A stretch of DNA of 64,000 nt from the human T2T-CHM13v2.0 reference genome, Homo sapiens. The stretch lies in NCBI RefSeq assembly GCF_009914755.1, contig NC_060948.1, one strand, 5' to 3'. This document shows positions 14,831 through 53,824 of this stretch, piece after piece. The notes beneath the pieces are model-generated. The model was given only the letters and a program-made list of their open reading frames with translations, was not told the origin of the DNA and did no database searches. The translations under genes and the position numbers were made by a program. The number at the start of each line of letters is the position of its first letter. Within the stretch, counting starts at the first letter, position 1.

Positions 14831-16401
14831 ATGGGAGGGAAGTTGTTGAAACCCACCCCATTAGAATGCATGTTAAACAACTTTAAGAAAGATTATGTGG
14901 GGGATTATGGGATCAAGTTGACCCCCAGAGGTTGAGAACTGTCTGTGAAATAGAGTGGTCCTCTTTCAGTATTGGATGGCCGGCCGAAGGAACTATAGAT
15001 GGGGAAATAATTGGCTGTGTATTTAAGGTGGTGACTGAGGTCGGAGGACAGCCTGGACTTCCAGGCCAATTTCCTTATATTGACTCACGGCTGAATATAA
15101 TTCAAACTCGACCTGTATGGCTAGAGCCCTGCCTGGCAGCTTATTGCAGAACACTGGTAGCTCGAGCTGAGCCAAAAGTGAAAGAGAATTCAGCTTTACT
15201 GTCAGCTACAAACAGAAAGGAAAAACCACAAGAAAAACCAGTTTTGCAGGAACCACCAGCGGAAATAGAAACCCCTCTCCCCTATGCACCAATCTATCCA
15301 CCTTTACCAAGCCTGGCCCAATAGCAGCCAGACTCAGATGATGATACACCTCAGGCTAACCCCAAAGTGTGAAATCTGAGCCCTTGCCCCAGGAGGTCAA
15401 GGAGGAAGGTCAAAATGATCAAGCAGGCCGCCTTTAATCTGGCTGCAAGAGCTTTGCAGATGCCTCTCTGAGAAACTTGGGGACCCATGTATTATGATGA
15501 ACAGGGCCAGGTCCAAGGGTGGGCAACCAACTTTCATTTATCACCCTTTTTCAACTATTGATCTCCTAAACTGGAAACACCATACTCCCTCCTACATGGA
15601 GAAGCCCCAAGCTCTCACAAAATCTGATGCAGTCTATTTTTGAGACACACAATCCAACTTGGCCAGACTGCAAACAGCTTTTCCTGATGCTGTTCAACAC
15701 CAAGGAATGCTGAAGGGTGACCTAGGTAGCCCACCAGTGGCTAGAAAACAATGCACTGGAAGGCACCCTTAATGTCCTGGCATATGCACAGGGCCAGTTC
15801 CCAGAAGCAGACCCGCACTGGGACCCAAACAAGGAAGCCCAACTACAGCAACTGCAGAGGTACCAAGAGGCACTCCTGCAAGTTTTGAGAAAAGGAGAGA
15901 AAAAGGCATTCAATATGGGAAACATTTCAGAGGTGCTTCAGAGAGCAGATGAAAGCTGTAGCCAGTTTTATGAGAGACTCTATGAGGCCTTCCAGCTTTG
16001 CAGTCCATTTGACCCTGAGGCTACTGAGAACCAGTGCATGGTAAACGCAGTGTTTGTAGGGCAAACCCAGGGAGACATCAGGCGAAAGCTGCAAAAGCTA
16101 GAGTGTTTCACTGGCATGAATGTCACTCAGGTTTTAGAAGTGGCCACCAAGGTGTACACTAACTGTGAGGAGGAGACTCAGGGAAAAGGCCAATTTGCTG
16201 GTGGCAGCACTTATGGAAAGGGGGGCGAATGTCCCAAGACGAAGTGGATGTAGGTGCGGACAAGGAAGAGGTCAAATCAGGCAAAGACCCGAGGATCAGG
16301 CAGCACTAGATAGGGACCAGTGTGTGGGGTGCAAGAAGAAAGGACACTGGAAGAATGAATGTCCAGAGGGTGATGAGGGAGAGGTGGAAGTAGGGGCCTA
16401 A
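14831..16401 (+). pseudogene. gag: Defective gammaretroviral gag (MA-CA-NC)
   Basis: MGGKLLKPTPLECML start, GWPAEGT (MA), QTQGDIRRKLQKLE (CA), single CCHC knuckle CVGCKKKGHWKNEC; many stops and frameshifts. Confidence 0.92.
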
Positions 16402-38225: not shown

Positions 38226-42050
<3,825 letters not shown>

Positions 42051-42113
42051 TATGACGTTCGCTGGTTATTTTGCTCATTAGTTAATGCAGTTTCTTCCTA
42101 GCCTCGATGGTCT

Positions 42114-43129
42114 TTACAGTTTGGCATGTTTTTGCAGTGGCTGGTACCAGTTGTTCCTTTCCATGTTTAGTGCTTCCTTCAGGAGCTCTTTTAGGGCAGG
42201 CCTGCTGGTGACAAAATCTCTCAGCATTTGCTTGTCTGTAAAGGATTTTATTTCTCTTTCACTTATGAGCTTAGTTTGGCTGGATATGAAATTCTGGGTT
42301 GAAAATTCCTTTCTTTAAGAACGTTGAATATTGGCCCCCACTCTGTTCTGACTTGTAGAGTTTCTGCCGAGAGATCAGCTGTTAGTCTGAGGGGCTTTGC
42401 TTTGTGGGTAACCTGACCTTTCTCTCTGGCTGCCCTTAACCTTTTTTCCTTCATTTCAACTTTGGTGAATCTGACAATTATGTGTCTTGGAGTTGCTCTT
42501 CTCGAGGAGTATCTTTGTGGTGTTCTCTGTATTTCCTGAATTTGAATGTTGGCCTGCCTTGCTAGATTGGGGAAGTTCTCCTGGATAATATCCTGTAGAG
42601 TGTTTTCCAACTTGGTTCCATTCTCCCTGTCACTTTCAGATACACCAATCAGACATAGATTTGGTCTTTTCACATAGTCCCATATTTCTTGGAGGCTTTG
42701 TTTGTTTCTTTTTATTCCTTTTTCTCTAAACTTCTCTTCTCTCTTCATTTCATTCATTTGATTTTCCATTACTGATACCTTTTCTTCCAGTTGATCAAAT
42801 CAGCTACTGAGGCTTGTGCTTTCATCACGTAGGTCTTGTGCCATGGGTTTCAGCTCCCTCAGGTCCTTTAAGGACTTCTCTGCATTGGTTATTCTAGTTA
42901 GCCATTCATCTAATGTTTTTTCAAGGTTTTTAACTTCTTTGCCATGGGTTTGAACTTCCTCCTTTAGCTCAGAGAAGTTTGATCATCTGAAGCCTTCTTC
43001 TGTTAACTCGTTAAAGTCATTCTCCATCCAGCTTTGTTCCGTTGCTGGTGAGGAGCTGTGTTCCTTTGGAGGAGGAGTGGCGCTCTGATTTTTAGAATTT
43101 TCAGTTTTTCTGTTCTGATTTTTCCCCAC
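42114..43129 (-). pseudogene. L1 ORF1, start codon mutated to GTG and disrupted
   Basis: GKNQNRKTENSK..., QSLQEIWDYVKRPNL, RATPRHIIVRF, FQPRISYPAKLS in separate ORFs. Confidence 0.93.
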
Positions 43130-49384: not shown

Positions 49385-50525
49385 AGCATAAGATACACAG
49401 ACACTGGGGCCTACTTCAGAATGCAGGGTGAGAGGAGAGTGACGGTAAAAAACTGTCTATTGGTTCCTACACTGATTACCTAAATGATGAAAAAATCTGT
49501 ACACCAAAACACTGAAACACCCAATTTACCTATTTAACAAACCTATACTTGGACCCATAAAGCTAAAATAAAAGTGAAAAAAATGGCAAGCAACAGGCAT
49601 ATGAAAAGGTGCTCAACATGATTGATCACCAGAGAAATACAAATCAAAACTACAGTAAGATATCATCTCGCCCTGGTTAAAATATATCCAAAAGACAGGC
49701 AATAACAAACACTGGCAAGGATGTGTAGAAAAGAGAATCCTTGTACACTGTTGGTGGGAATGTAAGTTAGTGCATCCACTATGGAGAACACTTTGGAGGT
49801 TTCTCAGAAACCTAAAAATAGAGCACCATATACTACAGCAATCCTACTGCTGGGTATATACCCAAAGAATGGAAATCAGTATATTGAAGAGTATCTGCAT
49901 CCCTGCATCCGTATGTTTTTCACAGCACTATTACAATGGCCAAGATTTGGAAGCAACCTAAGAGTTCATCAGCAAATGAATGAATAAAGAAAAGCTGGTA
50001 CATATACACAGTGGAATATTATTCAGCTATTAAAGAGAATGAGATCCAGTCATTTGCACTAAAGTCAATGGAACTGGAGATCATTCTGTTAAGTGAAATA
50101 AGCCAGGCACAGAAAGGCAAAATTTATATGTTCTTATTCATTTGTGGGAGCTAACAATCAAAACAATTCAACTCATGGAGGGAGTAAAATGATGGTTACC
50201 AGAGGCTGGGAGGGGTAGTAGAGAGCTTGTGTGGTGGGGAGTTGTGGATGATTAATTGATTAAAAAATTTAGAAAGAATGAATAAGACCTAGAGCTTGCT
50301 AACACAAGGTGACTATAGTCAAAAATAATTTAATCATACATTTTGCAACAACCAAGAGTGTAATTGAATTGTTCTTAACAAATGGATAAATGCTTTAAGT
50401 AATGAATACTCCATTTATCCTGATTTGATAATTATGCTTTGCATGCCTGCATCAAACCGTCTCATGTACTCCATAAATATATATATCTACTATGCACCCA
50501 CAAAAATTAAAGGTAAAGTTCTTTT
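49385..50525 (+). mobile_element. Old L1PA 3' tip (49385-49583) abutting an L1MA 3' end (49584-50525)
   Basis: AGACACTGGGGCCTACTTCAGA..AATCTGTACACCAAA; CAAGATTTGGAAGCAACCTAAG, GAAAGAATGAATAAGACCTAG. Confidence 0.85.
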
Positions 50526-50637
50526 AAAAGAAGCATTTTTATTCCTACTTCATCACAAGGCAGCTTTACACTAAATTATGTTATTTAATAAATAAATAAA
50601 TACGTATTTATTATGCAATTTATATTAACTTTTATGG

Positions 50638-52344
50638 TGACAGAGCAGGAGCATTGCCATCATGGACAAACCTCTCATTCTAAAGTTCATCTTAATAAAA
50701 AACCATCTAAATCCAAAGGGCATCAGCCTTATAGCTAAGGTCAACATGACCATAAACCACAAATAACATCTCCAACCAGAAACATTCCAAACTCCTCCCC
50801 ATCCAGAGACATGTTAGCCCCTACGTAAGCCTCCTCCATCCAGGAAGATGCCAGCCTCGAGTTAAACCCCTCTGGGCTGGTAAGATGTCTGCCCCAAGAA
50901 AACCTCCCCTCCTCCCAGAGAGATTCCAACCCCACCATAAACTTCTCCACACACATAAACATTCCAAGCTTCTAAGCTCCCCCACCCTAAAACCAATATA
51001 TACCCTTAGTGTGTAACAGAAAGGGCTGCTGATTGAAATTGGCCAGGGGCACCTCTCAGGTTTTAACTAAAGAAAACCTGTCTTTGGGTCTTGCTCTGTT
51101 GCCCAGGCTGGAGTGCAGTGCACGATCACAATTCACTGCAGCCTTAACCTCCTGGGCTAAAGTGACCCTCCTGCCTCAGCCTCCCAAGTAGCTGGGACTA
51201 CAGTCATGGGGCACCACCATGACTGGCTAATTTTTCTTTTTTAGCAATTTTTTGCAGAGATAGAATCTCATTATTTTGCCCAGGATGGTCTCACACTCCT
51301 GGCTTCAAGTGATCCTCCCACCTCTGCCTCCTAAATCCCAGTTTGTGCTGGGATTACAAACATGAGCTTGTAATCAGACAATACTTGTGCTGAGACAATA
51401 TAGGACCAGAAGGCCTGCACCTGATCTTCTGATCTTATATTCTCTTAGCACAGCTATTGTTTGATTTCTGTGTTACAGGTAACTAACATGTTGATGTTGC
51501 CCGTTGCTGTTAGTTCAGCCCCTCTAGGAAGCAGATACTGTGATGGAATTAGGAGTACAAGAAATTTATTGGGGGCTAATGGCTGTGACAGAAGAAGGTA
51601 GAGGAAACAGGACTGGGCAACAAAATTCTTCACACCTCCATGCAGATTAGACACTTGTGAAAGGAAAGAAAGAGAAGCAGAACTGGGCAACAGGAGCTTC
51701 AGACCATGCTGTGGATCTGCATAAGTCTCTGCCAATGCAACAAGGAGCTCTGGAACAAAGACTACTCATTAGAGGAGTCTCATGCTGGGCAGACAGGGCC
51801 ACACCCGAGCACTCCCAGCTTGTACGATATTGGCCTGGGGGCTACCCAGGAAGAGATGGGCCTCAGATCAAAAATATGGCATATCTAGAAGATGCTGCAG
51901 CTAGAGGCTGTCGGCCAACTATACTCCTTGCAGCTCAACAGTGAATTTCTCTCTTAAAGGGAGATCTTCGCAGCACACCTCTGCAGCTGTCATGTGATCC
52001 AAATCTCTTATTCCATGCTAGCTTTCACTATAGAATAGTGGCCAGAGAGTTTGATACCTGCTTTCTGAGCCTCCCTGACAACTGGAATGACTATGTGACA
52101 CAGTTCTGGCTAGTGGGGATTCTGAGAAGCTAACTGGATAAAAAGACAAAGTCTTATGCGAAGAAAGCACACACTCACACACACACCAGTTATTTGTTTT
52201 CTAAATTTGAATGTAGTCTTGATACCTGGAGGGGCAGCCATCTTGCAGGCAAGAGGCGATAAGCAAAAGTGCTGAAGGATATAGTTCCTTGATAACATTA
52301 ATGAGACTGCTCTCTTCTTGGTAAATAAATAATATGTTATTAAC

Positions 52345-52375
<31 letters not shown>

Positions 52376-52433
52376 CTGTCTTTGACTGCCAAGCTGTGTT
52401 TCGTGTTTCTTTCCTCTTTCTTCAAATTTTACA
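50638..52433 (+). mobile_element. LTR19A-like solo LTR (~498 bp), split by a 1.28-kb retroposed insert
   Basis: TGACAGAGCAGGAGCATTGCCATC start, ..TTTTACA end, 5-bp TSD TATGG (50633-50637, 52434-52438); halves 50638-51086 and 52385-52433. Confidence 0.85.
51087..52366 (+). other. L1-mediated retrocopy of a non-coding RNA 3' end: antisense AluJ (51087-51367), unique spacer, LTR16-like (~51505-51995), MLT1 (~52040-52344), poly(A)
   Basis: Perfect 18-bp TSD AAAGAAAACCTGTCTTTG (51069-51086, 52367-52384), AATAAA 52324-52329, A16 tail from 52345. Confidence 0.9.
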
Positions 52434-52661
52434 TATGGTTATTCTATTAATTATTTGGTTTTGGAAAAAACATTCTAATCACCTTTTTTTTTCTCCTCAT
52501 GATGGGTGGTTTTTGGAAGTAAAAATTAAAATATGGTCTAATACTAAATGAAAGATAGAACCAAAGTGAAAACTCAGAAACAAGAAGAAGAAGATGCTAG
52601 AGAAAATGAAAATTGTAGCACACTATTTCTATTCAAGAATAAGTGGATACTATTGGAGTGA

Positions 52662-52954
52662 TTTTTTTTTTTTTGAGGTGGAGTGTTACTCCATCACCCA
52701 GGCTGGAGTGCAGGGGACGATATGGGCTCATTACAACTTCTGCCTCCTGGGTTCAAGTGATTCTTCTGCCCTAGCTTCCTGAATAACTGGGATTACAGGT
52801 GGTGCCACCATGCCCAGCTAATTTTTGTATTTTTAGAAGAGACAAGGTTTCACCATGTTGGCCAGGCTAGTCTTGAACTCCTGACCTCAAGCGATCCTCC
52901 CATCTTGGTCACTTAAAGTGCTGTGATGACAGGTGTGAGCCACTGCTCCTGGCC
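52662..52954 (-). mobile_element. Alu (AluS/Jb)
   Basis: Antisense two-arm Alu; approximate TSD G(A/G)GTGATTTTT. Confidence 0.92.
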
Positions 52955-53824
52955 TATAAGGGTGATTTTTAAAGTAACTATTGCTATGAAATTCTGTTGT
53001 AAGGCAATGTTGCATCATCTCCAATCAACGTTAATAATACAGAATTTCTAAAATACCTGTAAGTATTATCCAAAGCAAATGAACTGGAACATTATAGTCT
53101 TGAAATCACAGGTGTCATTGCTATTTCGAGGTTGGTCTTGATGCTGAGATTTCAGAGACTCAAAGAATTGGCCCATCAGCAGTCATATGGCTGACATCTC
53201 TGTTACCTTTCTTCTGTTCAGTGGCATTTCTAACCATGGACTATAAGCTAGATTAGAGTTAGATTTCTTGTTTTTGTTGTTGTTGTTGTTGTTGGGCTGG
53301 CTGCACCTGCAAGTTAAGTTTCACTTATCCTTTTAGTTTTGGTTGGTTCCACTATCCATTCAAATTTGCCTTATTTGGTGTTCATACTGAGCACACAGTG
53401 GTCTGTTGACTCTCAGCAACTGCTCTTCAGTATGTTTAAAGTGTCCATCCCTTCAAACAAAACTGTCTCCTACCCCTTCCATCATTCTGGAATATGTTTT
53501 AGAATTCTCTCATTATTCTGATTATGTTGTTTTTGCCTGCATTGGAGCTGTAAATTTGTCATTATCGTCATTGACTGAATTGTATACAACTATTTATATT
53601 GTTTTAAAATTTGGAGTTTTTGGCAGGGAGGAAAGGAATGGTAGACCCATATCATAGTATTTACCAGTAGTAATCAGATAAAATCCTGAGGTGGTACCAC
53701 AGAGTTGTTCACATTTTTGTATTAATTTAGGATGTGTGCATGTAAATAAAGCATCCTAACCTGCTGCTTTTCCATCCTAGCTGTATGTAAATTAGTCTGG
53801 GGAGCGTTAGATTTGTATTTGTAT

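What the first reader, a model, noticed from the sequence alone, without database searches (positions are those of the whole stretch)
51069..52384. Hidden 1.28-kb retrocopy of a non-coding, repeat-mosaic RNA (orphan transduction or lncRNA/3' UTR processed copy)
Seen: an LTR19A-like LTR is split by an insert flanked by a perfect 18-bp direct repeat AAAGAAAACCTGTCTTTG. The insert ends in AATAAA, 15 nt, then A16-GAAAGA. The nick site reads 5'-CTTT/AG on the minus strand, resembling an L1 endonuclease site. The cargo has no L1 or sense Alu body. It holds a tail-less antisense AluJ, unique sequence, an LTR16-like LTR and an MLT1 LTR cut just after its own poly(A) signal. Known: TSD, poly(A) and EN site are the marks of L1 target-primed reverse transcription. 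LTR16 and MLT1 are much older than primate ERV1 LTRs, so they cannot have inserted here on their own. Inference: a Pol II transcript elsewhere, ending at an exapted MLT1 poly(A) site and expressed in the germline, was retroposed here. Repeat annotation would show only unrelated pieces and miss the event. The perfect TSD and clean tail suggest it is fairly young.
Basis: partly seen in the sequence, partly recalled or inferred. Interest (0 to 1): 0.8.

Follow-up and report, generated by a model that had tools for sequence, protein, structure and literature searches.

The report
Old non-coding retrocopy inside Y-chromosome LTR
A 1.28-kb stretch on the human Y chromosome is a reverse-transcribed copy of the tail end of a non-coding RNA made just downstream of the cyclin G2 gene on chromosome 4; it is a real but ordinary and fairly old event, and no function is evident.

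Summary
A solo LTR is split by a 1,280-bp insert (window 51087-52366) flanked by a perfect 18-bp duplication. The insert ends in AATAAA, 15 nt, A16-GAAAGA, and the inferred nick site is CTTT/AG.

The genome holds exactly one full-length paralog, T2T chr4:80,521,977-80,523,200. It is colinear with the insert and its homology stops exactly at the duplication and at the tail. There the antisense Alu keeps its T-tract, and the sequence runs on past the cleavage site into a GU/U-rich element.

In 20 of 20 paralogous LTR copies found by both flank searches, the 18-mer occurs once with the flanks abutting. It is therefore a true target-site duplication.

The source lies 15.3 kb past the CCNG2 stop codon on the same strand. 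No sense L1 lies within 50 kb upstream, so an orphan transduction is disfavoured. No intron was removed.

Substitution divergence is 7.7% (K2P 0.082), which suggests roughly 20-40 My, not "fairly young".

A second 126-bp copy on chr2 ends at the same cleavage site.

Names such as LTR19A, LTR16 and MLT1 could not be tested.

Verdict: a new member of a known kind, of low interest.

The parts
50633..50637 (.). TATGG, left copy of the host LTR's own 5-bp target-site duplication
   Evidence: Read. The LTR edges were set by 11 paralogs.
50638..51086 (.). 5' part of a 498-bp solo LTR that begins with TG. Its last 18 nt are the retrocopy's left duplication copy.
   Evidence: 39 paralogous loci at 80-92% identity; homology starts at 50637-50644 in 11 of 11 fetched loci.
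51069..51086 (+). Left copy of the 18-bp target-site duplication of the retrocopy
   Evidence: repeat family D8. It is single-copy in the paralogous LTRs.
51087..52366 (+). The retrocopy: body 51087-52344 plus tail 52345-52366
   Evidence: It is colinear with chr4:80,521,977-80,523,200, and homology stops at both edges.
51087..51367 (-). Antisense Alu body without its T-tract. It starts right after the GAGACAG of the parent Alu.
   Evidence: Alu matches to query 1-281. (the parent keeps its T-tract).
51507..51960 (.). Old dispersed repeat, family not determined
   Evidence: 21 weak paralogs at 66-93% identity; 6 more matches over its 3' part.
51961..52344 (+). 3'-terminal stretch with no dispersed paralogs. 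It carries AATAAA at 52324-52329.
   Evidence: the only matches are chrY, chr4 and a chr2 fragment. Read.
52345..52366 (+). Poly(A) tail, A16 then GAAAGA
   Evidence: It is absent from the parent.
52367..52384 (+). Right copy of the 18-bp target-site duplication
52385..52433 (.). 3' part of the solo LTR, ending in CA
   Evidence: right-flank homology runs to 52417-52433 in 10 of 11 fetched loci.
52434..52438 (.). TATGG, right copy of the LTR's own duplication

Best explanation
An L1 endonuclease/reverse transcriptase acting in trans nicked the minus strand of a solo LTR on the Y chromosome at 5'-CTTT/AG. It primed on the poly(A) tail of a cellular Pol II transcript and copied its last 1.26 kb into DNA, leaving an 18-bp target-site duplication.

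The template was made on chromosome 4, on the same strand as CCNG2. It lies 15.3 kb beyond the CCNG2 stop codon and about 11 kb beyond an AATAAA that fits the gene's usual end as I recall it. The transcript was cleaved and polyadenylated at an AATAAA / CA / GU-rich site at T2T chr4:80,523,200. The copied segment is unspliced, non-coding and made mostly of older repeats.

Shown here: the duplication, the tail, the parent locus, the exact ends of homology and the order LTR first, then retrocopy. Inferred: L1 as the enzyme source, germline or early-embryo expression of the parent RNA, and an age of roughly 20-40 million years. Whether the parent RNA was an independent non-coding RNA or a CCNG2 read-through or alternative last exon stays open. 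The copy shows no sign of function.
For: 1. The 18/18 direct repeat occurs only at the two edges of the insert (2 matches, 0.03 expected).
2. There is one full-length paralog in the whole genome, chr4:80,521,978-80,523,197, covering query 1-1258. By blastn the homology runs from window 51086 to 52347 and no further, although 1.5 kb of flank was offered on each side.
3. The parent keeps the Alu T-tract upstream. Past TTAACAAA it continues into TGTTCTTATGGTTT...TTGTTTTGGTTTTTGTT, where the Y copy has A16.
4. 20 paralogous LTR loci were hit by both flank searches. In all 20 the two matches overlap by the 17-18 nt of the single 18-mer. A blastn check showed the same in 10 of 11 fetched loci; the eleventh had no right-flank match.
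5. The LTR has its own TG..CA ends and a TATGG duplication outside the insert.
6. A second fragment, chr2:200,730,184-200,730,309, is 126 bp and 88% identical to the parent. It ends at the same cleavage site and is followed by AACAACAAAACA.
7. The neighbouring gene is cyclin G2. Two ORFs hit Cyclin_N, the best database hits are named cyclin-G2, and its exons map to chr4:80,499,327-80,506,715 on the plus strand.
Against: - No intron was removed within the copied 1.22 kb, so 'processed' cannot be shown by splicing.
- The nick site matches the L1 consensus TTTT/AA, as I recall it, at only 4 of 6 positions.
- I had no annotation or expression data for the chr4 locus, so the parent transcript is inferred only from its retrocopies and its poly(A)-site signals.
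- The chr2 fragment has no clear duplication or clean tail.
- In the Alu part, polarised against 33 unselected Alus, more differences fall on the chr4 lineage (11, one of them an alignment-edge gap column) than on the Y lineage (4), with 5 ambiguous. That is the opposite of a faster Y. In the last 126 bp, with chr2 as outgroup, it is 5 on the Y lineage against 2 on chr4 (counted by eye).
Confidence: 0.9

Rival explanations
1. Sub-hypothesis on the parent: the template was a CCNG2 isoform whose alternative last exon begins at the Alu-derived acceptor (T-tract, GAGACAG|G) at chr4:80,521,977. Alternatively it was a long CCNG2 read-through transcript.
For: The source is on the same strand as CCNG2 and 15.3 kb past its stop codon, and no CpG island lies between them. 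The Y copy starts exactly after the AG of GAGACAG, preceded in the parent by a 29-nt pyrimidine-rich tract. This is the 'proximal AG' position that antisense Alus use as a 3' splice site (Lev-Maor 2003, as described in a passage of PMC7275561).
Against: A spliced template should have carried upstream exon sequence into the copy unless reverse transcription stopped exactly at the junction. More than 20 AATAAA/ATTAAA signals lie between the gene and the source. No paper holds CCNG2 together with 'retrocopy'. The single paper with CCNG2 and 'exonization' concerns a microRNA.
Confidence: 0.3
2. Orphan 3' transduction: an L1 (or SVA) upstream of the chr4 segment read through into it. The copy was then 5'-truncated within the transduced part.
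For: The structure (duplication, tail, no L1 body in the insert) is what an orphan transduction looks like (one search found no L1 in the cargo).
Against: No sense-strand L1 lies in the 50 kb upstream of the source. blastn with a near full-length L1 from the window found only one antisense 291-bp piece at the far end. tblastn with that L1's ORF1, EN and RT pieces found only that same antisense piece. Pfam on 99 plus-strand ORFs of 60 aa or more, covering the 30 kb upstream of the source, the source itself and ~9 kb beyond, gave no RT or endonuclease hit. SVA was not tested directly. As I recall, SVA is confined to apes and younger than this event.
Confidence: 0.04
3. DNA-level event: a duplicated chr4 fragment was captured during break repair on the Y.
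For: The segment is colinear with genomic DNA and no intron was lost.
Against: The copy ends precisely 15 nt after AATAAA, at a CA followed in the parent by a GU/U-rich element. It then carries an A16 tail that the parent lacks. It also has an 18-bp duplication at an A-rich nick site.
Confidence: 0.02

Closest known systems
L1-mediated processed retrocopies (processed pseudogenes), including UTR-only and 5'-truncated ones
   Same: It has a target-site duplication, a poly(A) tail placed at the parent's cleavage site, an A-rich nick site and a single distant parent locus. Protein-based pipelines miss UTR-derived copies (passage in PMC2584115).
   Different: The parent segment is not part of any gene model I could see. 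It lies about 11 kb beyond the usual CCNG2 end, no exon junction is present, and the cargo is mostly older repeats, so repeat annotation would break it into unrelated pieces.
Orphan L1 3' transductions
   Same: Unique non-L1 sequence with a tail and a duplication and no L1 body.
   Different: No sense L1 lies upstream of the source within 50 kb.
Alu exonization through the antisense-Alu proximal AG acceptor
   Same: In the parent, the copy's first base follows T-tract-GAGACAG, the classical acceptor position.
   Different: No evidence here that this site is spliced. It may be a chance truncation point.

Membership tests
L1-mediated (TPRT) retrocopy | Direct target-site duplication of about 7-20 bp flanking the insert, single-copy in the empty site | tested here: met
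   18/18 repeat. The 18-mer is single with abutting flanks in 20 of 20 paralogous LTRs found by both flank searches and in 10 of 11 fetched loci. An orthologous empty site was not available.
L1-mediated (TPRT) retrocopy | Untemplated poly(A) tail at the 3' end, placed 10-30 nt after a poly(A) signal of the parent | tested here: met
   AATAAA, 15 nt, then A16-GAAAGA. The parent continues with GU/U-rich sequence instead.
L1-mediated (TPRT) retrocopy | Nick site resembling 5'-TTTT/AA (consensus recalled) | tested here: inconclusive
   The site is 5'-CTTT/AG, matching 4 of 6 positions.
L1-mediated (TPRT) retrocopy | A parent locus elsewhere whose homology ends at the duplication and at the tail | tested here: met
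   chr4:80,521,977-80,523,200 is the only full-length match in the genome.
Processed (spliced) pseudogene | Loss of the parent's introns | tested here: not met
   The copy is colinear with genomic DNA over 1.22 kb. The only gaps are 9 small indels, and the largest (28 bp) is extra in the copy.
Orphan L1 3' transduction | Source segment lies directly downstream of a full-length sense L1 | tested here: not met
   No sense L1 in the 50 kb upstream.
Solo ERV LTR (host of the insertion) | TG..CA ends, short flanking duplication, many dispersed paralogs of the same length | tested here: met
   498 bp, TG..CA ends, TATGG duplication, 39 paralogous loci. The name LTR19A was not testable.
MLT1 / LTR16 / AluJ assignments of the cargo | Match to the family consensus | not testable with these tools
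   No repeat library was available. The Alu and an old dispersed repeat are supported by paralogs, but the last 385 bp has none. A same-orientation pair of the old repeat 6.4 kb apart on chrX gave no retroviral Pfam hit in 61 flanking ORFs.

The most novel reading that the evidence does not exclude
The two retrocopies (chrY and chr2) would be fossils of an unannotated, germline-expressed, polyadenylated RNA downstream of CCNG2. Its terminal exon would start at an Alu-derived acceptor. The Y copy begins at exactly that exon boundary, which would mean the template was an RNA species whose 5' end lay at the 3' splice site, rather than a randomly truncated cDNA.
Probability: 0.1. Interest if true: 0.4.

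Novelty: new member of a known kind. Interest (0 to 1): 0.25.

Why it matters
The practical value is small.

- It shows that repeat-mosaic, non-coding retrocopies can be recovered from sequence alone, although they are invisible to protein-based pseudogene searches and are split into pieces by repeat annotation.
- Together with the chr2 fragment, the event records that a poly(A) site about 12 kb beyond the usual CCNG2 end was used in the germline tens of millions of years ago.
- It gives a datable marker on the male-specific Y.
- It places a sense-oriented poly(A) signal inside intron 1 of LINC00278. There is no evidence that the signal is used.

Tried and rejected
- Earlier findings of this scan were not open to the session.
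- A search with 10 kb of the CCNG2 3' region, looking for a CCNG2 processed pseudogene that would mark the mRNA end, returned only common repeats (39 of 16,883 candidates scored). It is uninformative.
- Rfam gave 0 matches at gathering score over 50400-53100.
- The first polarisation of Alu differences used the eight Alus that best matched the Y copy. It gave 1 on the Y lineage, 9 on chr4 and 6 ambiguous. I rejected it as biased by that selection and repeated it with 33 unselected Alus.
- I tried to show that the middle repeat is an LTR, using a same-orientation pair on chrX. None of 61 ORFs had a Pfam family.
- Literature: 'CCNG2' with 'retrocopy' gave 0 papers. 'CCNG2' with 'exonization' gave 1 paper, which was irrelevant. 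'CCNG2' with 'alternative polyadenylation' and 'distal' gave 4 papers, seen as a listing only, and none was evidently about an extended 3' end.
- A duplication for the chr2 fragment: the only shared word was a 10-mer, AAAAAAGAAT, about 55 nt beyond the tail remnant. That is not convincing. The adjacent Alu has its own duplication.

Full report
**Observation.** The 18-mer AAAGAAAACCTGTCTTTG occurs at window 51069-51086 and 52367-52384 and nowhere else in the 64 kb, even with two mismatches allowed. The chance expectation is 0.03, and 0 of 100 shuffles gave two or more matches. Between the two copies lie 1,280 bases. These end in AATAAA (52324-52329), 15 nt, A16 (52345-52360) and GAAAGA. The plus strand reads AACT|AAAG at the left edge, so the first-strand nick would be 5'-CTTT/AG on the minus strand. 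That resembles the L1 endonuclease consensus TTTT/AA, as I recall it, but is not identical to it.

**The host is a real, single LTR.**
- The left flank (50640-51086) has 39 paralogous loci at 80-92% identity.
- The right flank matches the same family for only 51-78 nt.
- Twenty loci appear in both searches. In all 20 the two matches overlap by the 17-18 nt of the 18-mer, so the 18-mer is present once and the flanks abut.
- A blastn check on the 11 fetched loci L019-L029 showed the same in 10. L028 had no right-flank match.
- Homology begins at 50637-50644 in 11 of 11 loci and ends by 52433.
- The LTR is therefore 498 bp. It starts with TG, ends with CA, and is flanked by its own 5-bp duplication TATGG at 50633-50637 and 52434-52438.

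It is part of the LTR, but it occurs there once, so its doubling around the insert is a target-site duplication. I had no orthologous empty site from another primate. The paralogs serve as a stand-in.

**The parent locus.** I searched the whole genome (T2T-CHM13; the window is contig 24, 2,666,001-2,730,000) with the insert body. The search returned the insert itself, one full-length match at contig 4 (length 193,574,945, i.e. chr4) 80,521,978-80,523,197 covering query 1-1258, and 49 further rows that all lie within query 1-281, which is the Alu (40 of 8,198 candidates scored).

When 1.5 kb of flank was offered on each side, the chr4 homology ran from window 51086 to 52347 and no further. The other segments were Alu-to-Alu matches. 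The alignment and the parent sequence show three things:
- The parent Alu keeps its T-rich tract (TTTTGTTTTGTTTTTATTTTTT) and GAGACAG upstream of the first copied base.
- The parent continues past TTAACAAA into TGTTCTTATGGTTTAATCTATTGTTTTGGTTTTTGTT. This is a GU/U-rich stretch of the kind found downstream of genuine cleavage sites. The Y copy has its A-tail there instead.
- No intron-sized gap exists. The nine indels are 1-6 bp plus one of 28 bp, and the 28-bp one is extra in the Y copy.

So chr4 is the parent, chrY is the copy, and the intermediate was a polyadenylated RNA.

**A second copy.** A search with the parent's 3' part (851 nt, reaching 277 nt past the cleavage site) scored all nine candidates. 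Besides chr4 and chrY there was chr2:200,730,184-200,730,309, 126 bp at 88% identity. It ends at the cleavage site and is followed by AACAACAAAACA. I found no convincing duplication for it, and a neighbouring Alu has its own. I read it as a second, older and severely truncated retrocopy of the same RNA end, with moderate confidence.

**What the parent is.**
- Two plus-strand ORFs upstream hit Pfam Cyclin_N.
- The better of these ORFs finds proteins named cyclin-G2 in many vertebrates (68 of 135 candidates at E of 1e-5 or better).
- Four of those proteins map the coding exons to chr4:80,499,327-80,506,715 on the plus strand.
- A CpG island lies at chr4:80,497,378-80,499,178, and none lies between the gene and the source.
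- The source starts 15.3 kb after the stop codon. It is 11.1 kb after an AATAAA at chr4:80,510,830, which fits the annotated gene end as I recall it.
- The 50 kb upstream holds no sense-strand L1. blastn with a near full-length L1 from the window found one antisense 291-bp piece at the far end. tblastn with that L1's ORF pieces found the same antisense piece only (those pieces were defined by Pfam).
- None of the 99 plus-strand ORFs of 60 aa or more, covering the 30 kb upstream of the source, the source itself and ~9 kb beyond, had a reverse-transcriptase or endonuclease domain. The three ORFs inside the source had no family at all.

An orphan L1 transduction is therefore disfavoured. Whether the RNA was an independent non-coding transcript or a CCNG2 read-through or alternative last exon cannot be settled with these tools.

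**An unexplained detail.** The first copied base follows exactly the AG of T-tract-GAGACAG in the parent's antisense Alu. This is the position of the 'proximal AG' acceptor used when antisense Alus become exons (Lev-Maor et al. 2003, as summarised in a passage of PMC7275561). A random 5' truncation would rarely land there. On the other hand, a spliced template should have carried upstream exon sequence into the copy. Only one base (G) of microhomology is shared with the target. I leave this open. It is the basis of the novel reading, which I rate at about 0.1.

**Age.**
- Over 1,217 aligned sites there are 67 transitions and 27 transversions, which is 7.7% and K2P 0.082. The 89% reported by BLAST counts gap columns.
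- With per-lineage rates of about 1-2.5 x 10^-9 per site per year (recalled values), this gives about 19-41 My.
- That places the event near or before the split of apes and Old World monkeys. It is not 'fairly young'.
- An intact 18-bp pair is not unusual at this age. The probability is 0.10-0.33 for 6-12% divergence between the two copies.
- Pairwise identity among the LTR paralogs is 80-92%, which is consistent with the LTR being older than its insert.
- Polarising the differences gave mixed results. In the Alu part, against 33 unselected Alus, 11 fall on the chr4 lineage (one is an alignment-edge gap column), 4 on the Y lineage and 5 are ambiguous. In the last 126 bp, with chr2 as outgroup, 5 fall on the Y lineage and 2 on chr4 (counted by eye). 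These numbers are small, and I draw no conclusion from them.

**Cargo composition.**
- The antisense Alu is supported.
- An old dispersed repeat at about 51507-51960 is supported by 21 weak paralogs and 6 more.
- The stretch 51368-51506 and the last ~385 bp had no dispersed paralogs.
- Family names could not be tested.
- The cargo has no L1 similarity and no Rfam family.

**Comparison with what is known.** This is an L1-type retrocopy of a non-coding transcript end. Such copies are a known kind, and protein-based pipelines are known to miss UTR-derived copies (passages of PMC2584115; reviews seen only as listings). RefSeq lists nothing at this place, according to the gene table supplied with the finding. 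No paper in the library holds CCNG2 together with 'retrocopy'. I judge it a new member of a known kind with no sign of function. It sits in sense orientation in intron 1 of LINC00278.

Noticed in passing
L044 (chr2:200,730,184-200,730,309, minus strand): A 126-bp fragment 88% identical to the last 126 nt of the chr4 parent. It ends at the same cleavage site and is followed by a decayed A-rich stretch. It is probably a second, older, severely truncated retrocopy of the same RNA.
   Followed up: partly
window 51087 / L002:1500: The 5' end of the Y copy falls exactly after the AG of T-tract-GAGACAG in the parent's antisense Alu. This is the classical Alu-exon acceptor position.
   Followed up: partly
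window 38578-42799, minus strand: A near full-length L1. Its ORF pieces hit L1 ORF1 domains (42266-42799), endonuclease (41593-42081) and reverse transcriptase (39434-40279).
   Followed up: partly
window 15726-16250, plus strand: An ORF hits retroviral Gag_p30 (E 1.4e-20). This is an ERV internal region about 1.3 kb downstream of the first exon of LINC00278 (14158-14379).
   Followed up: no
L019, L020 (chrY:14,007,289-14,007,735 minus strand; chrY:13,996,319-13,996,764 plus strand): The two closest paralogs of the host LTR (92% and 89%) are also on the Y. They lie 11 kb apart in opposite orientation.
   Followed up: no
window 51087-51367 versus L002:1501-1783: In the Alu part, more differences fall on the autosomal parent than on the Y copy (11 against 4, with 5 ambiguous). 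This is the opposite of the usual faster Y. The numbers are small, and Alu-Alu gene conversion on the Y could mimic it.
   Followed up: partly
L013:4505-4865 (chr4:80,498,482-80,498,842): The N-terminal extensions of predicted longer cyclin-G2 isoforms of macaque (393 aa) and gibbon (437 aa) map into the CCNG2 CpG island upstream of the usual start codon.
   Followed up: no
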